From: Escherichia virus KFS-EC
Reading direction: 5' to 3' (one strand)
Sequence record: MH560358
DNA: 64,000 nucleotides
The notes under the pieces were generated by a model. It was not told where the DNA came from. It saw only the letters and a list, made by a program, of their open reading frames with translations, and ran no database searches. Position 1 is the first letter of the stretch. The number at the start of each line of letters is the position of its first letter. Both the position numbers and the translations under genes were made by a program. Of the stretch, positions 3,472-55,789 are shown piece by piece.

Positions 3472-3867
3472 TTACTTACTAAATTTCTTTTTGGCTTCGT
3501 CTACCGCATGAGATGCCAGTACCGCAGCCGCATGTGCACTTTTATCTGTGTTGCAGAGAACGCCCAGATAAACATCACGCCAAAGTTTAATCATCTCGTA
3601 GATCATATCAATATCATTTTCTTGTTTGTTGGCGATGCTATTCGTCGTTATCTGGTAAGGTAACGGCTTGATCTGTACTGGTTCCGCCATCGGGCTAATC
3701 GGTTTCGGATCAGTCATAATAGGTGCTGTTGTGGGTGGTGTTTTCCATACATCATTATTCCACGGTTTAATCGTTGTGTCGTAAAGTTTATAAGGATTTT
3801 TGTCTGGGTCAACCATCCATGCATGATGAGTACCCAAACCATTTGAAGTGATGCGTCGTTCAGTCAT
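3472..3867 (-). CDS. hypothetical protein (131 aa), Pro-rich
   Basis: ATG with GGAGGG SD. Confidence 0.5.
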   Translation of the reverse strand: MTERRITSNGLGTHHAWMVDPDKNPYKLYDTTIKPWNNDVWKTPPTTAPIMTDPKPISPMAEPVQIKPLPYQITTNSIANKQENDIDMIYEMIKLWRDVYLGVLCNTDKSAHAAAVLASHAVDEAKKKFSK

Positions 3868-4063
3868 ACTTTCCCTCCAAAAATTCTTTCATCAAATAGT
3901 CTATCGTTGCTCTGTGTTCTGGTGTGTTTGTTATCTCTGCTAACTTATTCAGAGATTCAATAGTGATCCGGTTGGCTTCTTCCATAGTCTCAACGACCAT
4001 TGGCACAATCTTTTTATTGTTGTACACAAATGCAATATAACCGCCTTCTGGATATTCTTTCAT
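3860..4063 (-). CDS. hypothetical protein (67 aa)
   Basis: ATG 2 nt after gp52 stop, AAGAAGGG SD; track start is TTG. Confidence 0.45.
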   Translation of the reverse strand: MKEYPEGGYIAFVYNNKKIVPMVVETMEEANRITIESLNKLAEITNTPEHRATIDYLMKEFLEGKYD

Positions 4064-4065
4064 AA

Positions 4066-5412
4066 TCAACCCTTCTTAAGTTCTTTAAGATCTTTCTTAT
4101 ATTCCTTCATTGCGGTCGTCTTTGTCCAATACTCATATTCACTATGATGTTTATCGGCATCTTTGACCAGTCGATCATACTCTTCTTGAGTAACGCTATA
4201 TAATGGCATAGAAACTAGCTTATCGGCGTATGGACGCAGTTTTTCATGTCCATTTATGGATTGCATTACCTCGGCCTTTTTCTTGCCCTGTAGCTCGATT
4301 TCGCCCTTAATTACGCGATCGATAAATTCGGCTTTAGCCATTGCATAATTGTATGCTTCCAGCGTTTCCGCTTGCATCAATTCAATGCGTTTATCGACAT
4401 ACCCTAATCGGATTTCGACGAATCGACGGATCAGATCGCTCGCTTTCTCGAATACTTCTACTAAACCACGTTCGTTAACTACTACGATATTCTGGGCTAC
4501 TAACTGCGTTAGTTTAAAATCCTTCATGATTTGCTCATGTCGAGCGGATTCATCTTCGCTTTTGAAATAATCGCGTTTCAGTGTTACTTCAAATCTGAAT
4601 CCGTCCTTAGAGCAACGGTCATTATACGATACAATCAGATCTTTTTCTTCCAGTGCATCCAGTACCGCTACATATTCTTCACGGTCGAACTTATAAGGAA
4701 CTTCTGATATTGTCAGTTTAGTCTTGCCGTTTAGTTCATATGTACCCTCAAGAATCACACCATCGCGATCATCTCGCGGGATAACTTTACCTGTGAATTT
4801 CGGGAATTGAACACTAGGTTCTTTATCCAGTTTTCCGGCAAGTGCTAGCTCTGTGCATTCAATAAGGCTTTCCAGTGAATGCGGTAAAATGTCAGTTTTA
4901 TACCCTGTAGCAATACCACTAATACCATTAGCCAATACCATTGGCACAACTGGCAAGTAGAAAGCTGGCGGGATGTGTTCCAGATCTTCGTGCTTAGGTG
5001 CGCAATTCATATCTTTATAGATTTTAAAGAAGTTTTCATGCACACGAGCAAAGATATAACGTGCCGCACCTGCTTTCTGGACTAAACGCGATCCGAAGTT
5101 ACCTTGACCGTCAAGCAGTGGAGTATTATTGCTCCATGTATTCGCCATGAGTGATCCGGCTTCTACGGCATTAGTTTCCCCGTGGTGATAACCCAACTCA
5201 GCAACACCAGATCCAATATCTGCCATCTTACGGAATTTCTTACGGTCGCCTTTACTCTTTTGCAAAGCACATTCCATAACAAAGCGTTGCACTGGTTTAA
5301 GTCCGTCTACCAATTGAGGAATCCCGCGTTCCTCGGCAGAATAGATCGCATATTCCTTAGCTTCATTATGTACAATGCTTTCAAGGCTGCGGTAAGTAAC
5401 TGATTTATTCAT
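4066..5412 (-). CDS. 52: DNA topoisomerase II medium subunit (GyrA-like), gp52
   Basis: strong similarity to T4 gp52 as recalled (PVQRFV, GYHHGE, LLDGQGNFGS motifs); start set at internal ATG, track start is GTG. Confidence 0.9.
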   Translation of the reverse strand: MNKSVTYRSLESIVHNEAKEYAIYSAEERGIPQLVDGLKPVQRFVMECALQKSKGDRKKFRKMADIGSGVAELGYHHGETNAVEAGSLMANTWSNNTPLLDGQGNFGSRLVQKAGAARYIFARVHENFFKIYKDMNCAPKHEDLEHIPPAFYLPVVPMVLANGISGIATGYKTDILPHSLESLIECTELALAGKLDKEPSVQFPKFTGKVIPRDDRDGVILEGTYELNGKTKLTISEVPYKFDREEYVAVLDALEEKDLIVSYNDRCSKDGFRFEVTLKRDYFKSEDESARHEQIMKDFKLTQLVAQNIVVVNERGLVEVFEKASDLIRRFVEIRLGYVDKRIELMQAETLEAYNYAMAKAEFIDRVIKGEIELQGKKKAEVMQSINGHEKLRPYADKLVSMPLYSVTQEEYDRLVKDADKHHSEYEYWTKTTAMKEYKKDLKELKKG

Positions 5413-12964: not shown

Positions 12965-13633
12965 TTATCCCCTTTGTTTCTTAACTGAATTTGGATCTGG
13001 ATTTTCTGGTAGGTCTTCCAGACCCATAGCATAACGTTGTGCATAGATTAGCATAAGAATATCGCGAGCGCAATCATGAATTGCATCATGTGCGATAAAA
13101 CCATCTAGCGTACCCATTGGTAACGGACACTCACACATCCCGCGATGCATCAATGTACGCTCAATGGCGGTGCGAACATCTCGGATATTCCAGAATCGCA
13201 CAGGTTCAAGGCTGAACGTCTCTCGTGTATTGTGTGCACGGCGGATCATATCAACTAGTAACGGAATATCAAACGCATTACCGCGTGACCACAATACGGA
13301 TTTAACCGGATCTACTCCTACGGCTTCATAGAATGCGTTAAAACGCGCTAAACCTTCTTTAGTTGATACTTCCGTACCATTTGTGATTAATTGCTTTCTC
13401 ATGCCTTCTGAGGCGGTATTCTTCCACCATTCAACCACACCATGATCAAACACCCTTACACCTTTCTGGGAAGGAATATCAAATTTTACCAGAAAGGAAT
13501 TGTCAACCAGTTCTTTAAATGTAGGTGGATTGTGCGGATCTTCTTTAAATCCGATTGCCGCCATATTGATAACCGCCCCATCAGGCGGATAACCTAAACT
13601 TTCAAAGTCAATCATTAAATCCACTGGAAGCAT
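12965..13633 (-). CDS. dexA: exonuclease A (3'-5' DEDD-type), DexA
   Basis: matches T4 DexA as recalled (IDFE...G, GTLDGF.AHD.IHDCA.DI); start at internal ATG with GGAGGA SD. Confidence 0.85.
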   Translation of the reverse strand: MLPVDLMIDFESLGYPPDGAVINMAAIGFKEDPHNPPTFKELVDNSFLVKFDIPSQKGVRVFDHGVVEWWKNTASEGMRKQLITNGTEVSTKEGLARFNAFYEAVGVDPVKSVLWSRGNAFDIPLLVDMIRRAHNTRETFSLEPVRFWNIRDVRTAIERTLMHRGMCECPLPMGTLDGFIAHDAIHDCARDILMLIYAQRYAMGLEDLPENPDPNSVKKQRG

Positions 13634-13634
13634 T

Positions 13635-13874
13635 TTAAATATCCTCCGCGATGTGCCGGAATAACTCCAGATCATTTTTATCTAACACTAGATTGCATTT
13701 GGTTGACCGATAATTGCAAACATTAATCAGTAAACTTTCCATCGCCTGTACCGACTGTACTTTATGTCGAAAAGACATTACATGTTGTGCATAATCAGCG
13801 TGAATTTTATCACGATGGAATGTTACGATGGCATCTAAACATAACAGTTTATCAATTTCATCAATAATCATCAT
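13635..13874 (-). CDS. hypothetical protein (79 aa)
   Basis: ORF tightly packed between dexA and dda. Confidence 0.45.
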   Translation of the reverse strand: MMIIDEIDKLLCLDAIVTFHRDKIHADYAQHVMSFRHKVQSVQAMESLLINVCNYRSTKCNLVLDKNDLELFRHIAEDI

Positions 13875-13875
13875 A

Positions 13876-14043
13876 TCAGTAACCCCGCTTAGTGAAGTGA
13901 TCTATCATGGAATTAATACAATCGGCCTCGCTGATTCCAGATATACCCCATCCGTAGTTACCCCACCTGAAATGCATGTATACACATTCGCCATGATACG
14001 ATACTTTCACTTCGTCAAATTCTGGGATACTTCGCATAATCAT
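13876..14043 (-). CDS. hypothetical small protein (55 aa)
   Basis: internal ATG with GAGGAA SD; track start TTG. Confidence 0.4.
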   Translation of the reverse strand: MIMRSIPEFDEVKVSYHGECVYMHFRWGNYGWGISGISEADCINSMIDHFTKRGY

Positions 14044-14054
14044 AATAATATTCC

Positions 14055-15446
14055 TCAAATATAGTCTACACGATACCGAGCACGGGTAACACCAACATAT
14101 AATAACTGCATTGCCAATTCAAAGTCAACATTGTCTGTACACATGCAAGGGGTATACAGGAACACGCGGTCTACGCTGATCCCTTGTGACTTATGAATGG
14201 TGCAAGCTGGTAATGCTTTTACATTCAAGAACATACGCCTCATCGTCCAGAAGGAATCCCAATCTGGTTTAAATTTTGGATTCTCTTTCTTCATTTCGCG
14301 ATATTGTCCGGCGACCGTATTCAGATAGATAGAGAAAATGTTCTTCTGACGTTGTTCTGTCAGAATGTTGATTTCTACTAAATCCGGTTTATCTGTAGTG
14401 ATTCCGACTGCATCTAAACCGACTTTCTGATTTAGGATTTCTTTGTCTTCGTCATCATCGACGCTTTCCACTTTCAGAGTATAGCCTAAAACTGGTTGCG
14501 GATCTACCCCCGTGCAACGTAATGTAAATTCGCGCGGGATGACCTCTTTAACTCGGATCATCTCACCATTGTTAAAAATAACATTGGGAATCTTCTTCCC
14601 GCGTTCATCTCGCAGATATTCGATCAACGGTTCCTGAGTAACCAGAATTTCATCTACAATCACTGGTTCATCGGTGTTATAAACGCGCTTACGTACAATT
14701 TCATTGAGTTTTTCGACGCTCTTGTTAGTGTAGGCCAGAATACGGTTTTCTAGAAGGTCTTCCGGCGTTTTAACGGTTTCGAAATAATGCTTCATAAACT
14801 CCGGCAGAGTTGAGCTATGGAATACACCCTCGTTACCGCACTGCTTTTCGAATACCCATTTACCGTTACGGACAGCGGTCGCCACATCAATTATTGGCGC
14901 ATTAGATCGTTTAATCTCTGTAAGTTCTACATTCTGGAACCTTTCATCGGTGAAGAAAGGAGAGATCGACGTTGCACCGCTCGTATCAACTGGTCGTAAC
15001 TGGTACAGATCACCCACAGCAATAATAACAATTCGACCGTTAATACTCTTCATGAGGATATCAAATAGTTTCTTATCGACCATACTCGCTTCATCAACAA
15101 TGATGATCTGAACATCATCAAGTTTAGGAGTATCTTTTTGCTCAAATACTTGAGTGTCTTCATAGTTGGTCGGATTGAGTCGCAGAAGTGCATGTAAGGT
15201 AAACGCTTGACGGCCTACCGCCTTACTCAAAACTTTTTTAGCCTGGTGGGTAGGCGTTGCCAAAACCACACCAGTTACACCACGGCGGACCATTTCCTGA
15301 ACAATGAATTTCATCATTGCGGTTTTACCAGTACCCGCCGCACCACGGACAGTTGTATGCTTCTTTTGTTCAATACGTTTCATTAGAACATCAAAAGCAT
15401 GTTTTTGCCCGTCTGTTAACATATCGAAAGTTAATACTCTGCTCAT
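14055..15446 (-). CDS. dda: Dda SF1 DNA helicase
   Basis: matches T4 Dda as recalled (LT.GQK.AF, G.AGTGKT, IGD..Q..PV); 463 aa. Confidence 0.9.
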   Translation of the reverse strand: MSRVLTFDMLTDGQKHAFDVLMKRIEQKKHTTVRGAAGTGKTAMMKFIVQEMVRRGVTGVVLATPTHQAKKVLSKAVGRQAFTLHALLRLNPTNYEDTQVFEQKDTPKLDDVQIIIVDEASMVDKKLFDILMKSINGRIVIIAVGDLYQLRPVDTSGATSISPFFTDERFQNVELTEIKRSNAPIIDVATAVRNGKWVFEKQCGNEGVFHSSTLPEFMKHYFETVKTPEDLLENRILAYTNKSVEKLNEIVRKRVYNTDEPVIVDEILVTQEPLIEYLRDERGKKIPNVIFNNGEMIRVKEVIPREFTLRCTGVDPQPVLGYTLKVESVDDDEDKEILNQKVGLDAVGITTDKPDLVEINILTEQRQKNIFSIYLNTVAGQYREMKKENPKFKPDWDSFWTMRRMFLNVKALPACTIHKSQGISVDRVFLYTPCMCTDNVDFELAMQLLYVGVTRARYRVDYI

Positions 15447-15760
15447 TATCCTAAAATCCTCACCTTGCGAACACAGATAGTATTGAGTTCTCGCCGTACC
15501 CGTTCTTTTTCATATTCAGGAATTTTATATTCGATACCATCCCGAACAATTTCAGAAGACCGGATTATGCCAAATTTTCGTTTAGGTACAACCTTGTATT
15601 TCGGTTCACCCGCCAATAGACTCTCACAATAATCTATCTGATCACACATTGACGCTAACGCAGCATCATGTGTTTCGCAAGTTAGGACGCGACCCTTCGC
15701 GTCCACTGAGTATTGAAAGAATCCGTCTTTATCACGATAACATATAGCAAATACATGCAT
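15446..15760 (-). CDS. hypothetical protein (104 aa), dda.1 position
   Basis: ATGA coupling with dda. Confidence 0.5.
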   Translation of the reverse strand: MHVFAICYRDKDGFFQYSVDAKGRVLTCETHDAALASMCDQIDYCESLLAGEPKYKVVPKRKFGIIRSSEIVRDGIEYKIPEYEKERVRRELNTICVRKVRILG

Positions 15761-16515
15761 TATAAACCTACCTTCGCTTTCATCAATTCAATCCACGACG
15801 CATCAATCGGAAGCCCGTATTTCACGCGTTCTTTTTGTGCTGGCGTTAAGTTCTCATACTTAGAAAGAGATTCAATCAAAACGCTGGTATATTTTAGCAC
15901 GATTTCGGTATTGTTTGCAATAGCCTTAAGTTTTTCTTCTTTCTTGTTGATTTCGCTAAGGGCTTGCTTGAGATCTGCAATTTTCTGATAACGTTCTTCC
16001 ATACGGAAGAGAGTATTTTTAATCGCTCGCTCGGCTGCCTCTGCTTTCTCCGGTTCGTTGTGCTTTTTGTGGCGCTCGATTGCTAATTTCTTTTCTTCGA
16101 TTGCTATTTCCTGATTTTTGATGCGATTCTCGTTAAGTTCGATCCACTCGATGTACTTCGCACGTAGGGTAATTTCATCATCAGAAAGTTTACCGTTAGT
16201 TCCTAGTTCCTGGATCTCTTTAAGAGATTCGATAGTGTGATTGCCACGGAAAGAATTGTATTTCCGTTTAACCGGAATTACATTGCCATCAACATATCCT
16301 AGATTGCAATCAATGCGCTCTAAGGAGAGTCCATCATCACCTTCACCGAACGCTTCACCTGAATATGCGCAATGAGTCTGACGGTAAATGTTACGCACAG
16401 TGACTAAGCTCATAGAGAAGTCTTTGTTGCGACGTGAAGCGCCAGTCATGATAGAGTTCAGACGGAAAACAACCAGCGCCAATTCTTCGTTAGATTTAAA
16501 AGCAAACAGTTTCAT
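15760..16515 (-). CDS. hypothetical protein (251 aa); Srd-like by position and size only
   Basis: coiled-coil C-terminus; identity not verifiable from sequence alone. Confidence 0.5.
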   Translation of the reverse strand: MKLFAFKSNEELALVVFRLNSIMTGASRRNKDFSMSLVTVRNIYRQTHCAYSGEAFGEGDDGLSLERIDCNLGYVDGNVIPVKRKYNSFRGNHTIESLKEIQELGTNGKLSDDEITLRAKYIEWIELNENRIKNQEIAIEEKKLAIERHKKHNEPEKAEAAERAIKNTLFRMEERYQKIADLKQALSEINKKEEKLKAIANNTEIVLKYTSVLIESLSKYENLTPAQKERVKYGLPIDASWIELMKAKVGL

Positions 16516-17149: not shown

Positions 17150-17668
17150 TTAGTAGCCGCGTTCTTGACGGGCGAAGTTTTCAGCATTTTTCAGATAGTA
17201 CAGCTTGAAGATATCCTTAGCGGTTAAACCTAAGCCCAGCATTTTAATCAGCACAAAATGCCAGATATCGATCAATTCCATCGAAATTTCGGTTTTATCG
17301 TCATCTGACAGGTCAGCAAATTTACGCGATCGTGCTTCGCCGTGGTTTTTCTTCCACACTTTAGTAATTGCGCTTGCATCTTTGCCATTTGACATGCCAC
17401 CCAGGGCAACATAAAGTTCTCGTGTCTCGTCGTCGATTGCGTCATCCCACAACTTCATCCAGTCAAGGATTTCTCCACAAGTTTCCAGCTTATCAGGATG
17501 CGGCACCCACTCAAATTTATCAGCTAGTGCGACCTGTAATCCTTTTTGCATATCTAACATTACTTGCAGCGGATCTTTGCCGCTAGTGATTGCCTCGGAA
17601 TACGCAATACCAGCTTTAGACATAGTTTCATCATTAACAAGACCAGCACAAGAATTAAATTCACTCAT
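17150..17668 (-). CDS. 56: dCTPase/dUTPase-like nucleotide pyrophosphatase (MazG-like), gp56
   Basis: MazG-type motif ELIDIWHFVL; T4 gp56 position between modA/B and 61; start at internal ATG with GAGAGG SD. Confidence 0.75.
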   Translation of the reverse strand: MSEFNSCAGLVNDETMSKAGIAYSEAITSGKDPLQVMLDMQKGLQVALADKFEWVPHPDKLETCGEILDWMKLWDDAIDDETRELYVALGGMSNGKDASAITKVWKKNHGEARSRKFADLSDDDKTEISMELIDIWHFVLIKMLGLGLTAKDIFKLYYLKNAENFARQERGY

Positions 17669-17678
17669 AATAAACCTC

Positions 17679-18242
17679 TCAAATAACATTAAACACTGCA
17701 AATTCACCGTGATACTTATACGCATAGTCATTATATACTATTGCGGCGTCTATTTCTAGGTCAAATTGTCCTATATAGACTTTATTTCCTTCATTGTCCC
17801 TTATCTGGGCGACCCATTTACCCGAACGACTATTATAATGCACTCCTTTAAAATTGCTAGTTTTAGTTTGGTTATTTCTTCTCATATTTTGGGTATTCTG
17901 TTTTTGTGTCGCCTCTCTTAAGTTTGGAGGGTCGTTGTTTTCTGGATTCCCGTCAATATGGTCAATGACAGGTGGGCAATACCCATGCTCTAAGAAGAAT
18001 ACTATTCTATGCACAAGCTCAAAATATTGTTTTCCTTCAAAAGAAAACGAGACTTTTAGGTGTCCGGCTGTGACTTTAGATACCTTTACTATATCACCAA
18101 CCTTATAAAACTGGCCTTCTTTCGTCGTTCGGCTTGCTTTGCTGTTTGTTTTATGAATCAATATACCACTTTCGTGTCTATATCTTCGACGTATTTCATC
18201 CTTTAGTTCATCGCTCCATTCTTTGGCTTTCCTTACCCTCAC
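17679..18242 (-). CDS. freestanding HNH homing endonuclease with C-terminal AP2-like DNA-binding domain
   Basis: HNH motif HRIVFFLEHGYCPPVIDHIDGNPENNDPPNLREATQKQN; AP2-like FKGVHYNSRSGKWVAQIRDNEGNKVYIGQF; GTG start with GAGGG SD; inserted between 61 and 56. Confidence 0.75.
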   Translation of the reverse strand: MRVRKAKEWSDELKDEIRRRYRHESGILIHKTNSKASRTTKEGQFYKVGDIVKVSKVTAGHLKVSFSFEGKQYFELVHRIVFFLEHGYCPPVIDHIDGNPENNDPPNLREATQKQNTQNMRRNNQTKTSNFKGVHYNSRSGKWVAQIRDNEGNKVYIGQFDLEIDAAIVYNDYAYKYHGEFAVFNVI

Positions 18243-18259
18243 AATACAACCCTCATTAA

Positions 18260-19288
18260 TTAAAATTTACAATATTTCATAAACCGCATTTTAGCCATCA
18301 GACCTTGTACGGTGTTCTCTTTGATATATTCCATGATCTGGTCGCGTGTAGCGCCCTCGTCCTGAATCATGGCGTTAACGTCTTTAGAATGCCACGGGCA
18401 ACGGTCCCACAATACAATCTTTTCCCCTGCATTGATAAACTTTTCCAGTCGGTGCATTGTATCGGCAGACCGTGGTTCCGCATCAAGTACAAACACTCGC
18501 TGGTCTGGGAAAGGGATTTCATCTAATCCCAAAGTACCGCCAGTAATTGCACACCCGTTATCAATAAACAATGAATCGATCGGACCTTCTAAGAAATACA
18601 CTGGTTTACTCGGATCGGCGCGTTCAAGACCATAGACCTTACTCGCTAACTCGTGAGTTTTAATCGTCATATATTTGGTCTTTCCGTAATCCTTTCTCAA
18701 TGCTCGCCCCTGAATGGATTCTATCTTGTTCTCGCGGTTAAAGATAGGAATCACTAAACGTGGTTCAGGTTGTGGATTCTTGAAAGTATCAGCCTTAATG
18801 TGATTTGCTACCTTTTGCCATTCTCTCGTGAAATACAGAAGATCCCATTTATCGTGAGGGATGCAACGATCACTGACATACTTTATTATAGGATGATTAG
18901 CCGGAAGAGTATCTAATCTCTCGCAGAAAGGCAATGTTTGCACTTTCTTAATCTCCGACTTTTCTACCTTTTTCAGTGGCTTGAACGTGGTGTTCTTGTG
19001 GTCGCCTTGTTCCTTCCGTCGTTCCATAAGCCATTCCCTGAATAGGTCCGGCTTATACTGTTTGAGAAATTCACCTAACGGCTGATTGTAGTTACAGTTG
19101 AAACAGCCGCAACGCAAACTATCCTTATAGGTATAGATACGGAATCGCGCTTGAGTATGATTTTTCTTTGAGTCACCGCAGATCGGACAACTACAGACCA
19201 GCGTAAATGAGCTAGTATGCAACCGTTTAAAATTTCGTTCGCCGTATATGGCTTTTTCCGCTATTTCATAATCTGCGTAGTAAATCAT
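18260..19288 (-). CDS. 61: DNA primase gp61
   Basis: N-terminal zinc ribbon (CSCPICGD...CGCFNC); size 342 aa identical to T4 gp61; synteny with 41. Confidence 0.85.
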   Translation of the reverse strand: MIYYADYEIAEKAIYGERNFKRLHTSSFTLVCSCPICGDSKKNHTQARFRIYTYKDSLRCGCFNCNYNQPLGEFLKQYKPDLFREWLMERRKEQGDHKNTTFKPLKKVEKSEIKKVQTLPFCERLDTLPANHPIIKYVSDRCIPHDKWDLLYFTREWQKVANHIKADTFKNPQPEPRLVIPIFNRENKIESIQGRALRKDYGKTKYMTIKTHELASKVYGLERADPSKPVYFLEGPIDSLFIDNGCAITGGTLGLDEIPFPDQRVFVLDAEPRSADTMHRLEKFINAGEKIVLWDRCPWHSKDVNAMIQDEGATRDQIMEYIKENTVQGLMAKMRFMKYCKF

Positions 19289-19297
19289 AATAACCTC

Positions 19298-19501
19298 TTA
19301 TAGCTCAAATTTCATGAAAGTTCCTACACTTTCATTTTCATTCTCTCCGTTTTCATCTAAGCCAAATTTGTAGACACTACCATCTGGCGATGTGTAAGAG
19401 AATACACGAAAACGGCCTACCGAATCAAGTTCTGTAAATTCATATTCTTTTCCGGCTTCAAAAAGTGCATATGTGCTTTTAAGACATTTCATCGTAATCA
19501 T
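19298..19501 (-). CDS. hypothetical small protein (67 aa), 61.1 position
   Basis: ATG start; coupled to next small ORF. Confidence 0.45.
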   Translation of the reverse strand: MITMKCLKSTYALFEAGKEYEFTELDSVGRFRVFSYTSPDGSVYKFGLDENGENENESVGTFMKFEL

Positions 19502-19641
19502 TTAAGCGCCACCGACAACAGAATGAGAACTACACCAACATACATTGTGATCTCGGATAACTTTTCTGTTTTTGTTTTGTGTCCAGATAATCCGAAAACA
19601 ACAACACCGATAATAGCGGACAGCAAGCCAACGATAAACAT
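19498..19641 (-). CDS. tiny membrane protein (47 aa, two hydrophobic segments)
   Basis: hand-translated MFIVGLLSAIIGVVVFGLSGHKTKTEKLSEITMYVGVVLILLSVALK; ATGA overlap with downstream ORF; weak SD. Confidence 0.3.
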   Translation of the reverse strand: MFIVGLLSAIIGVVVFGLSGHKTKTEKLSEITMYVGVVLILLSVALK

Positions 19642-19648
19642 GATGATA

Positions 19649-19825
19649 CTAAGCACCGTCTTTCTCCTTTTTGCGTTTTTCTTTACCCGCTACACTAGGT
19701 CCACGATTGGTAATAGATCCGCTCGTTTCACCTGCTGCGATCTTCTCAGGATTGCCGCCAGCATCGCCAGTGGTCATATCTTCTTTGAGTTTATTTTCTT
19801 CAACAAACTGTTTAAATCCAATCAT
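19649..19825 (-). CDS. small hydrophilic protein (58 aa)
   Basis: hand-translated; ATGA overlap with stop of ORF 19822-20199. Confidence 0.3.
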   Translation of the reverse strand: MIGFKQFVEENKLKEDMTTGDAGGNPEKIAAGETSGSITNRGPSVAGKEKRKKEKDGA

Positions 19826-22683: not shown

Positions 22684-23433
22684 TTATTCTATGTCAACAA
22701 ATTTCCAATTTGGAAAGTCTGGACTCATACAACGACGCCGAACGGTTCCGCGCTCGTTTCCTAGTACCTTAGATACTTCCGATACAGATTTATAAATCAC
22801 ACCATCAACAAATACAGCCTTTCGGTCTTTCCTGTTTTGGTTTTTGCTCTTTTCTCTTCTGGCTTCTACGTTATCCGAATCATTCCATTGTCTCTTTGCT
22901 GTCTCTCTGGAAGATATTGCCTTTTGTTCTTTAACAATATCTTTAACGAGTTGTTCTTGTCCTGTTATCTTCGCCCACACATTAACAGACTGGATAGCAT
23001 TAGCCTCACTCATTCCCCAGCGTTTGCCGGATATATTCTTACGACGCACGCGTAGAAATTCGTTAAAGACTTCTTCGCATTGGTGCATATAATCACGAAA
23101 TCCATATTTCTTAGCCCATGCCTCTTTAATTGCATCAGACATATTTTCGGCAATACGTCTACGCATCCATGCATACTCCTTATTATTGCGACCGTGACTG
23201 GTCATGCACATCATACGCGAAGCCATAATAAGACCCACATGTTTAGGATACATTTTAGCTAAAAGTAGATGTGCTGTAAAGTGTTCCTCTGGAGTCAATG
23301 GAACGAGATTTTCGTGGTCATCGGTTCCACCCATACAACGTGGTTTAACGTGATGGATCTCTACATATCCGGTCGGCTTCTCGCGGGTTCTTGCTCGTTC
23401 AATCAATTTTTCGTAATGTGCTTTGTAGTTCAT
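22684..23433 (-). CDS. freestanding HNH homing endonuclease
   Basis: HNH motif EIHHVKPRCMGGTDDHENLVPLTPEEH; basic C-terminal DNA-binding region; start at internal ATG with GGAGGA SD right after uvsX terminator. Confidence 0.7.
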   Translation of the reverse strand: MNYKAHYEKLIERARTREKPTGYVEIHHVKPRCMGGTDDHENLVPLTPEEHFTAHLLLAKMYPKHVGLIMASRMMCMTSHGRNNKEYAWMRRRIAENMSDAIKEAWAKKYGFRDYMHQCEEVFNEFLRVRRKNISGKRWGMSEANAIQSVNVWAKITGQEQLVKDIVKEQKAISSRETAKRQWNDSDNVEARREKSKNQNRKDRKAVFVDGVIYKSVSEVSKVLGNERGTVRRRCMSPDFPNWKFVDIE

Positions 23434-23451
23434 GTGATCCTCCATATGAAA

Positions 23452-23470
23452 AAGGGGCATAACGCCCCTT
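23452..23470 (-). terminator. rho-independent terminator after uvsX
   Basis: AAGGGGC-loop-GCCCCTT stem followed by U4. Confidence 0.55.
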
Positions 23471-55781: not shown

Positions 55782-55789
55782 TATTTATA
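55782..55789 (-). promoter_or_regulatory. T4 late-promoter-like TATAAATA box inside a 9-bp-stem hairpin
   Basis: exact TATAAATA on minus strand, in loop of CCCCAGATT..AATCTGGGG inverted repeat (about 55757-55798). Confidence 0.35.

What the first reader, a model, noticed from the sequence alone, without database searches (positions are those of the whole stretch)
17679..18242. Freestanding HNH-AP2 homing endonuclease inserted between primase (61) and gene 56, translated from GTG
The 187-aa ORF combines a classic HNH nuclease motif with an AP2-type DNA-binding domain, the architecture of T4-family freestanding homing endonucleases. It occupies the 61-56 junction, has no ATG before the catalytic motif, and appears to start at GTG with a GAGGG SD, consistent with deliberately weak expression of a potentially toxic nuclease. 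The insertion may mark a recent mobility event.
Basis: partly seen in the sequence, partly recalled or inferred. Interest (0 to 1): 0.4.

Follow-up and report, generated by a model that had tools for sequence, protein, structure and literature searches.

The report
Freestanding HNH-AP2 homing endonuclease gene
This is an ordinary selfish "homing endonuclease" gene, a DNA-cutting enzyme fused to an AP2-type DNA-binding domain, inserted between the primase and dCTPase genes of an RB49-like (T4-type) coliphage. The same gene is already annotated in six public phage genomes and is absent from that site in most of their relatives.

Summary
On the minus strand, 17679..18242 is an intact 187-codon ORF starting at GTG, 7 nt after a GAGGG Shine-Dalgarno. 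It lies between gene 61 (primase) and gene 56 (dCTPase) of a Krischvirus (RB49-like) phage. It has an I-HmuI-type HNH domain with the catalytic D-H…N…N residues intact, and a C-terminal AP2 domain. The AP2 match is below Pfam's cutoff but is confirmed by matches to solved AP2/ERF structures and by a confident AlphaFold model.

The ORF is a presence/absence polymorphism. Six phage records carry a 98-99% identical copy at the same site. Most relatives have a clean empty junction with 14 nt between genes 61 and 56. A 588-nt segment replaces 11 nt of that junction. It takes over gene 56's old SD and supplies a new SD, ATG and Ser codon for gene 56.

The only fixed differences between carriers and close non-carriers lie in the first ~130 nt of gene 56, and three of them are silent. 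The insert is less diverse than its flanks. Paralogues (≤50% identity) occupy other intergenic junctions.

The best reading is a promoter-less, freestanding HNH-AP2 homing endonuclease, probably a nicking enzyme, that targets the 61/56 junction or the 5' end of gene 56. The class was described in 2004-2010 and this gene is already annotated, so novelty and interest are low.

The parts
17679..18242 (-). HNH-AP2 endonuclease ORF, 187 aa, GTG start, TGA stop
   Evidence: phrog_99 HNH endonuclease, 1.3e-44; intact with GTG start in all 6 public copies
17892..18017 (-). HNH_3 (I-HmuI-like His-Me finger) nuclease core, aa 76-117. Motif: VIDHIDGNPENNDPPNLREATQKQN (D94, H95, N107, N116)
   Evidence: Pfam 9.2e-14; aligns with the I-HmuI 1u3e motif vvDHkDGNkdNNlstNLRwvTQKiN, E 1.2e-5; Foldseek top hit 1u3e
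17688..17855 (-). AP2-type DNA-binding domain, aa 130-185: three beta strands (134-137, 142-148, 154-160) packed on helix 163-181
   Evidence: Pfam AP2 7e-07, below the gathering score; PDB sequence hits to WRI1, ERF096, AtERF1; AF2 secondary structure; 1gcc TM 0.78
18250..18254 (-). GAGGG Shine-Dalgarno, 7 nt before the GTG. Its first four bases (GAGG) are the SD that serves gene 56 in insert-free genomes
   Evidence: read from the sequence and the junction alignment
17663..18250 (-). Inserted segment of 588 nt that replaces 11 nt (TGAATATGTCA) of the empty junction. It contains the ORF, a new SD (GAGAGG, 17680-17675, overlapping the TGA stop) and a new ATG-AGT for gene 56
   Evidence: alignment of the window, TB34 and G2494 against the empty sites of OZ035808 and RB49
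17150..17668 (-). Gene 56 (dCTPase), downstream neighbour and probable target gene; now translated from signals supplied by the insert
   Evidence: annotation of relatives; Pfam dUTPase_2
17630..17639 (-). Three silent substitutions in gene 56 codons 10, 12 and 13 (CTT/AAT/GAT here; CTG/AAC/GAC in the four close empty-site genomes). They are fixed between carriers and close non-carriers. Candidate immunity or co-conversion markers
   Evidence: Divergence between carriers and non-carriers (dxy) peaks at 0.069 in 17501-17668, against 0.016-0.039 elsewhere
18260..19288 (-). Gene 61 (primase), upstream neighbour; no fixed differences between carriers and non-carriers

Best explanation
The ORF is a freestanding ('intronless') homing endonuclease gene of the HNH-AP2 class, resident in a Krischvirus genome.

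Shown:
- It is an intact two-domain protein: an I-HmuI-type HNH nuclease plus an AP2 DNA-binding domain.
- It is a discrete 588-nt cassette present at the 61/56 junction in a minority of otherwise ~98-99% identical phages.
- It has no obvious promoter of its own. It sits in the same orientation as genes 61 and 56.
- It reuses gene 56's former SD and supplies a replacement SD and start codon for gene 56.

Inferred:
- It is translated at a low level from the polycistronic early 61-56 message.
- In a mixed infection the AP2 domain, with the N-terminal region, docks the enzyme on the insert-free allele at the 61/56 junction or the first ~40 bp of gene 56. The candidate target is ...TTAATGAGGTGAATATGTCAGAATTTAATTCTTGTGCTGGTCTGGTTAACGA...
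- The HNH domain then nicks or cuts that allele. Characterised I-HmuI, MobA and MobE all nick.
- Recombinational repair templated by the carrier genome copies the cassette and a short stretch of gene 56 into the recipient.
- The carrier allele is protected because the junction is disrupted and/or because of the three silent changes at 17630, 17633 and 17639.
For: Domains and catalytic residues:
- Searches support both domains.
- D94-H95 and N116 have the same 21-residue spacing as I-HmuI D74-H75 and N96. The I-HmuI residue numbers are from my memory of Shen et al. 2004; the motif alignment itself is.

Presence/absence polymorphism:
- Six records carry the insert, and at least 34 listed records show the two-piece 76% match that marks an empty site.
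- Only those six records in the collection hold a copy above 95% identity; everything else is below 60%.
- In IMG/VR the occupied-junction string is found 0 times and the empty-junction string 3 times.

Family members at other junctions:
- After a gene 39-like topoisomerase subunit.
- Between rpbA and gene 45.
- Next to gene 46 in RB16 and related Klebsiella phages, and at several other positions in Krischvirus genomes.

Flank signature:
- All fixed carrier/non-carrier differences lie within ~130 nt on the gene 56 side, and none lie in gene 61.
- The divergence peak (dxy 0.069) and the low insert diversity (pi 0.0049 against 0.010-0.030 in the flanks) are.
- The ORF is intact in all copies, with 5 synonymous and 3 non-synonymous variable codons and none altering the catalytic motif.

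Literature:
- HNH-AP2 is a recognised class of putative homing endonuclease genes (HEGs) in RB49, RB43, RB16 and JSE (PMC1524935; PMC2993671, Table 5).
- Many T4 freestanding HEGs are promoter-less cassettes.
- MobA, MobE and I-HmuI nick.
- T4 SegF also targets gene 56 (PMC2988022).
Against: - No cleavage or inheritance data exist for this protein or, as far as I found, for any T4-related HNH-AP2.
- The flank signature rests on 5 carriers and 4 close non-carriers that are not independent. Ordinary linkage and recombination in a mosaic genome could produce it.
- The direction of change (gain versus loss) cannot be determined.
- No donor for the cassette was found.
- The AP2 match is below Pfam's gathering score.
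- A GTG start with no other regulatory signal could also mean poor expression of a decaying element.
Confidence: 0.8

Rival explanations
1. Inactive or decaying relic. The cassette arrived once by homing or illegitimate recombination and is now carried passively. The nuclease is not made (GTG start, no own promoter) or no longer finds a target.
For: - GTG start, whereas the two closest paralogues use ATG.
- No promoter or regulatory hairpin detected.
- Only 6 public genomes carry it.
- One family member (P0005) has lost the catalytic His (DF instead of DH), so decay does occur in this family.
Against: - The ORF is full length in all 7 copies, with all catalytic residues and the AP2 core conserved.
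- A canonical SD sits at good spacing.
- The insert is less diverse than its flanks, and it is found in different mosaic backgrounds. Both suggest spread rather than slow decay.
Confidence: 0.1
2. Domesticated nuclease that benefits the phage, for example by excluding competing Krischvirus genomes, degrading host or satellite DNA, or acting through its AP2 domain as a regulator. It would be retained by selection on the phage rather than by its own drive.
For: - HEG-derived domains have been co-opted in other phage systems (PMC10448857).
- The cassette is wired into expression of gene 56 because it supplies that gene's SD and ATG.
- Marker exclusion by T4 HEGs is documented (PMC2988022).
Against: - Most Krischvirus genomes do without it.
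- The pattern is that of a sporadic insert with family members scattered over many junctions.
- A competitive benefit through marker exclusion is a consequence of homing, not an alternative to it.
Confidence: 0.07
3. Passenger of ordinary homologous recombination. The divergent gene 56 allele and the adjacent ORF moved together as a module between phages, with no nuclease activity involved.
For: - Gene 56 is dimorphic. The window-type allele (14 records) differs from the RB49-type at 152 of 519 nt, inside flanks that are ~99% identical.
- The ORF occurs only next to the window-type allele.
- The region is visibly mosaic.
Against: - Eight records have the window-type gene 56 allele without the ORF, so the two are separable.
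- The boundary between carriers and those non-carriers is sharp and sits within 40-130 nt of the insert.
- The protein has every sequence feature of an active site-specific nuclease.
Confidence: 0.03

Closest known systems
HNH-AP2 putative homing endonucleases of T4-related phages (RB49 ORF040c, JSE, RB43, RB16; class defined by Magnani et al. 2004, Plant Cell 16:2265)
   Same: - Same two-domain architecture (N-terminal HNH_3, C-terminal AP2) and a similar size of ~180-190 aa.
- Freestanding in intergenic junctions between conserved genes.
- RB49 ORF040c region: 41.8% identity over 97% of the query. RB16 'homing endonuclease 2': 40.7%.
- Listed as a class in PMC1524935 and in PMC2993671, Table 5.
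   Different: - It sits at a different locus, the 61/56 junction, which is empty in RB49 itself.
- It is ≤50% identical to every paralogue, so it presumably has a different target.
- It uses a GTG start.
- None of these relatives has been characterised biochemically, as far as I found.
I-HmuI (Bacillus phage SPO1 intron-encoded HNH nicking endonuclease, PDB 1U3E)
   Same: - The nuclease core and catalytic motif align almost residue for residue.
- It is the best structural match of the model.
- On that basis the ORF is likely to nick one strand.
   Different: - I-HmuI is intron-encoded and uses helical/HTH DNA-binding modules, not AP2.
- The overall superposition is poor outside the core (TM 0.38-0.40, rmsd 14 A) because the domain arrangement differs.
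T4 freestanding endonucleases: Mob (HNH) and Seg (GIY-YIG), especially SegF at soc/56
   Same: - Intronless homing logic: a promoter-less cassette inside an existing operon, a target in a neighbouring conserved gene, and co-conversion of flanks (PMC2988022).
- SegF also targets gene 56, so the dCTPase gene has been invaded independently in two phage lineages.
   Different: - SegF is a GIY-YIG enzyme on the other (3') side of gene 56.
- T4 has no HNH-AP2 genes (PMC2993671, Table 5).
- Homology to the Mob proteins beyond the HNH motif was not tested here.
Plant AP2/ERF DNA-binding domains (AtERF1 1GCC, ERF096 5WX9, WRI1 7WQ5, TEM1 7ET4)
   Same: The C-terminal 56-60 residues share the fold and ~33% identity.
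   Different: The plant proteins are transcription factors without a nuclease. Here the domain is presumed to be the targeting module of a nuclease.

Membership tests
HNH_3 / I-HmuI-like His-Me finger nucleases | Significant match to the family profile, above the curated cutoff | tested here: met
   PF13392: 51.2 bits against a cutoff of 24.8, E 9.2e-14; phrog_99 HNH endonuclease, 1.3e-44
HNH_3 / I-HmuI-like His-Me finger nucleases | Catalytic Asp-His, structural Asn and metal-binding Asn present (DH…N…N) | tested here: met
   D94, H95, N107 and N116 align with I-HmuI DH…NL…N. They are invariant or nearly invariant among 12 homologues and unchanged in all 7 copies.
HNH_3 / I-HmuI-like His-Me finger nucleases | beta-beta-alpha-metal fold | tested here: met
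   AF2 model, pLDDT 87.3, with strands 93-95 and 108-110 and helix 113-118; Foldseek top hit 1u3e, E 1.3e-4; I-PpoI also listed
HNH_3 / I-HmuI-like His-Me finger nucleases | Metal-dependent DNA nicking or cleavage | not testable with these tools
   Needs biochemistry
AP2/ERF DNA-binding domain (PF00847) | Profile match above Pfam's gathering score | tested here: not met
   29.9 bits against a cutoff of 33.3, although E is 7e-07. The precomputed Pfam for the 99% identical cluster representative P0001 does list PF00847.
AP2/ERF DNA-binding domain (PF00847) | Three-stranded antiparallel sheet packed on a C-terminal helix, superposable on solved AP2 domains | tested here: met
   E134-137, E142-148, E154-160 and H163-181; 1gcc TM 0.78, rmsd 2.0 A, 33% identity; also 5wx9 and 7et4/7et5; sequence hits to 7wq5, 5wx9, 2gcc, 1gcc
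AP2/ERF DNA-binding domain (PF00847) | Sequence-specific DNA binding | not testable with these tools
   Needs EMSA or footprinting
Freestanding (intronless) homing endonuclease gene | Nuclease ORF in an intergenic position between conserved genes, not inside an intron or intein | tested here: met
   It lies between the gene 61 stop and the gene 56 start. The empty site has a 14-nt spacer.
Freestanding (intronless) homing endonuclease gene | Sporadic presence/absence among close relatives, with a precise empty site | tested here: met
   6 carriers. At least 34 listed relatives show the empty pattern, some with flanks 98.5-98.8% identical to the window.
Freestanding (intronless) homing endonuclease gene | Family members occupy different loci in related genomes | tested here: met
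Freestanding (intronless) homing endonuclease gene | Co-conversion or immunity signature in flanking sequence | tested here: inconclusive
   Fixed differences lie only in the first ~130 nt of gene 56, and divergence between carriers and non-carriers (dxy) peaks at 0.069. This fits the model, but the sample is small and non-independent, and linkage alone could give the same pattern.
Freestanding (intronless) homing endonuclease gene | Cleavage of the insert-free allele and super-Mendelian inheritance in mixed infection | not testable with these tools
   Needs phage crosses and cleavage mapping

The most novel reading that the evidence does not exclude
The comparative data may already pinpoint the homing site and its immunity determinants. 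On this reading the enzyme recognises the insert-free 61/56 junction and gene 56 codons 1-14. Three silent third-position changes (CTG>CTT, AAC>AAT, GAC>GAT), together with the swapped SD/ATG/Ser codon, make the carrier allele resistant.

If so, this would be the first defined target for a phage HNH-AP2 enzyme. It would give a handle on how an AP2 domain reads DNA in its presumed ancestral, nuclease-linked context.

A further twist is possible. Because the cassette replaced gene 56's own SD and start codon with its own, imprecise loss would inactivate an essential dCTPase gene, which would stabilise the element.
Probability: 0.3. Interest if true: 0.35.

Novelty: already known. Interest (0 to 1): 0.15.

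Why it matters
The significance is limited. The result confirms that HNH-AP2 homing endonuclease genes are still moving among RB49-like coliphages, which are widely isolated for phage therapy. It also gives a clean natural set of occupied and empty alleles, with a predicted target of about 55 bp, for anyone wishing to characterise this still uncharacterised enzyme class. The AP2 link to plant transcription factors makes the class of some evolutionary interest. Gene 56 is targeted by an unrelated nuclease (SegF) in T4, so this adds a small example of convergent invasion next to the same conserved gene.

Tried and rejected
1. RNA hairpin sequestering the RBS, as for I-TevI. Folding 18205-18300(-) and 17630-17730(-) gave z-scores of -0.16 and +0.32, so there is no structure signal.
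2. T4-type late promoter TATAAATA near the ORF. The only match in the window is at 55782. The sigma-70-like scan gave 11 hits against 7.5±2.3 expected, which is not informative. One of those hits, TAGAAA-17-TATAAT at 17758-17730 inside the 3' end of the ORF, could feed gene 56, but it is only a consensus match.
3. Paralogues of the ORF elsewhere in the window. tblastn found none.
4. The second 187-aa HNH gene of TB34/SAP, upstream of gene 61. It shares only the HNH motif (13 of 26 residues) and has a different architecture, so it is not a paralogous duplicate.
5. By eye, the 251-aa ORF at 15760-16515 looked HNH-like. It has no Pfam hit and corresponds to Srd in RB49 annotation.
6. A donor for the cassette or for the window-type gene 56 allele. 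Nothing lies between ~77% and 97% identity for gene 56, and nothing lies between 50% and 98% for the protein.
7. The occupied-junction string in IMG/VR: 0 hits.
8. Literature on this specific gene or on Krischvirus homing endonuclease genes: nothing specific.
9. Direction of change (gain or loss) between the empty and occupied window-type alleles. It cannot be resolved from the alignment.

Full report
**What is in the sequence.** The finding's coordinates hold an intact ORF on the minus strand, 17679..18242, of 187 codons.
- The frame is closed upstream by a TAA at 18269-18267. The first canonical start is the GTG at 18242.
- There is no in-frame ATG until Met120, which lies after the nuclease motif.
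- GAGGG (18254-18250) lies 7 nt upstream of the GTG.
- The gene 61 stop (TAA, 18262-18260) is 17 nt upstream of the GTG, in another frame.
- The ORF's TGA stop (17681-17679) overlaps a GAGAGG that sits 6 nt before the ATG of gene 56 at 17668.
- All three genes read in the same direction.

**Identity of the window.** Megablast of 17000-19400 hits 75 records. All listed matches are RB49-like Straboviridae of the genus Krischvirus; 17 of the unlisted records are Klebsiella phages. From RB49 and related annotation, the neighbours are gp61 primase and gp56 dCTPase. modB, srd and dda lie downstream, and 61.1, dc1, dc2, 41, 40 and uvsX lie upstream.

**Domains.**
- Pfam gives HNH_3 (E 9.2e-14, well above the cutoff, aa 76-117) and AP2 (E 7e-07, 29.9 bits, below the 33.3-bit gathering score, aa 130-179).
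- PHROGs gives phrog_99 'HNH endonuclease' at 1.3e-44.
- Against PDB sequences, the N-terminal two-thirds matches I-HmuI (1u3e, 1.2e-5). The catalytic block aligns nearly residue for residue: query viDHiDGNpeNNdppNLReaTQKqN against I-HmuI vvDHkDGNkdNNlstNLRwvTQKiN.
- The C-terminus matches four solved plant AP2/ERF proteins: WRI1 9e-8, ERF096 1e-4, AtERF1 2e-4, TEM1 0.015.
- An AlphaFold2 model built from 12 sequences is confident (pLDDT 87.3, pTM 0.77). It shows a three-stranded sheet plus a long helix at aa 134-181.
- Foldseek against the PDB ranks I-HmuI first and then AP2 domains. AtERF1 1gcc superposes at TM 0.78 and 2.0 A.

The sub-threshold Pfam AP2 score is compensated by two independent lines of evidence.

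**Is it an insertion?** Yes.
- Six records carry a 97.5-98.8% identical copy of the whole 2.4-kb query: G2494, phiS, ELT3, AV108, TB34 and SAP.
- The other listed Krischvirus records match in two pieces covering 76% of the query, which means they lack ~577 nt. Some of them have flanks 98.5-98.8% identical to the window (OZ035808, MIZ6).
- tblastn finds the orthologue in only those six of 50,697 records. Every other hit is below 60% identical.
- Aligning occupied and empty junctions gives exact boundaries:
  - empty: ...TAATTAATGAGG|TGAATATGTCA|GAATTTAAT...
  - occupied: ...TAATTAATGAGG|GTTGTATTGTG…ORF…TGAGAGGTTTATTATGAGT|GAATTTAAT...
- Thus 588 nt (17663-18250) replace 11 nt.
- The GAGG that serves as gene 56's SD in empty genomes becomes the SD of the endonuclease. 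The cassette brings a new SD, ATG and Ser codon (AGT instead of TCA) for gene 56.
- In IMG/VR the empty-junction string occurs three times and the occupied string never.

**Signs of mobility.**
- Family members sit at other junctions. The two nearest relatives in the large protein collection (49% and 48% identity) lie after a gene 39-like topoisomerase subunit and between rpbA and gene 45. Others lie next to gene 46 in RB16 and related Klebsiella phages, and at several positions in Krischvirus genomes.
- Flank differentiation is local. In a 10-kb alignment of 5 carriers, 4 close non-carriers and RB49, every fixed carrier/non-carrier difference lies on the gene 56 side within ~130 nt of the insert. 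These are the swapped 11 nt, three silent third-position changes in codons 10, 12 and 13 (17639, 17633, 17630) and one at 17540. There are none in gene 61.
- Between-group divergence peaks at 0.069 in 17501-17668. It is 0.016-0.039 elsewhere, which is comparable to within-group diversity.
- The insert is 2-6 times less diverse among carriers (0.0049) than their flanks (0.010-0.030).
- Carriers have different mosaic backgrounds. For example, phiS and ELT3 differ from the window at 14-22% of positions across 13400-14200, where G2494 and AV108 do not.
- The ORF is full length with a GTG start in all copies. It has 5 synonymous and 3 non-synonymous variable codons, none altering the catalytic motif.

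These patterns are what homing with short co-conversion tracts predicts. The sample is small and not independent, so I rate the flank signature as supportive, not conclusive.

**A complication worth recording.** Gene 56 itself is dimorphic.
- The window-type allele occurs in 14 records, 6 occupied and 8 empty.
- All other Krischvirus records carry an RB49-type allele. It differs at 152 of 519 nt (53 non-synonymous codons), confined to ~17205-17627, inside flanks that are ~99% identical.
- The cassette is found only beside the window-type allele. The empty window-type genomes resemble RB49 in the first ~40 nt of gene 56.
- Two histories fit. The cassette may have entered an already dimorphic locus. 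Alternatively, cassette and divergent gene 56 arrived together and the empty window-type alleles are recombinants.
- No donor was found. I cannot decide between these histories.

**Expression.**
- I found no late-promoter motif nearby.
- The sigma-70-type scan was not informative.
- There is no RBS-occluding hairpin.
- The simplest reading is a promoter-less cassette read from the upstream early transcript, as described for seven of T4's freestanding endonucleases (PMC2988022).
- The GTG start is conserved in all copies, whereas the two closest paralogues use ATG. That fits reduced translation, but reduced translation was not tested.

**Mechanism.** Steps marked as inferred have not been shown.
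1. The enzyme is made at a low level from the 61-56 message (inferred).
2. In co-infection it binds the insert-free allele through its AP2 domain and N-terminal region (inferred).
3. It nicks or cuts near the junction or the 5' end of gene 56. I-HmuI, MobA and MobE, the characterised relatives, all nick one strand (PMC2988022) (inferred).
4. Recombination-dependent repair copies the cassette and adjacent gene 56 sequence from the carrier (inferred).
5. The carrier allele escapes because its junction is disrupted and/or because of the three silent changes (inferred).

**Comparison with what is known.**
- HNH-AP2 genes were defined as a class of homing endonucleases by Magnani et al. 2004. They were catalogued in T4-related genomes by Nolan et al. 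2006 (RB49 ORF040c, RB43) and by Petrov et al. 2010 (Table 5: RB49 1, JSE 2, RB43 3, RB16 6, T4 0).
- This ORF is a member of that class at a locus not occupied in RB49.
- The same gene is already annotated as 'HNH endonuclease' or 'homing endonuclease' in six GenBank records.
- T4's GIY-YIG SegF also targets gene 56, from the other side (PMC2988022, Table 1). This is a modest example of convergent invasion.

**Verdict.** The feature is an already known kind of element and is already annotated in close relatives. The only added value is the exact insertion anatomy and a testable ~55-bp target prediction. Interest is low.

Noticed in passing
window 22684-23460 (-): A second freestanding homing-endonuclease-like ORF of 258 aa lies between gene 40 and uvsX. 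Pfam gives an I-TevI-type DNA-binding domain (2.7e-06) and a classic HNH motif (HHVKP…NL…EH; 0.002, below cutoff). It is absent from all 9 relatives aligned here. It is present in only 3 of 57 matching records (pEJ01 99.9%, Sf20, JEP8), none of which carries the 61/56 insert. Flanks in the listed insert-free records are only ~90% identical. No record in the collection shows the window's combination of the two inserts.
   Followed up: partly
window ~17205-17627 (gene 56): The dCTPase gene is dimorphic in Krischvirus. The window-type allele (14 records) differs from the RB49-type at 152 of 519 nt and 53 non-synonymous codons, inside flanks that are ~99% identical. No intermediate or donor allele was found.
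   Followed up: partly
L002 (TB34, OX001802.1) 3797-4360; same place in SAP: TB34 and SAP carry a further, unrelated 187-aa HNH homing endonuclease inserted between gene 61 and the RB49 ORF017c homologue, so gene 61 is flanked by endonuclease genes on both sides. The window lacks this insert.
   Followed up: partly
window 13400-14200 and 19400-19800: Sharp mosaic blocks are visible. At 13400-14200 the window, G2494, AV108 and OZ035808 differ by 14-23% from phiS, ELT3, MIZ6, Makalu_001, SSG23 and RB49. At 19400-19800 G2494 alone differs (45 of 385). The small ORF018c homologue is annotated in some relatives and missing in others.
   Followed up: no
alignment A1, P0005: One metagenomic HNH-AP2 family member has DF in place of the catalytic DH, so it is likely a nuclease-dead copy.
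   Followed up: no
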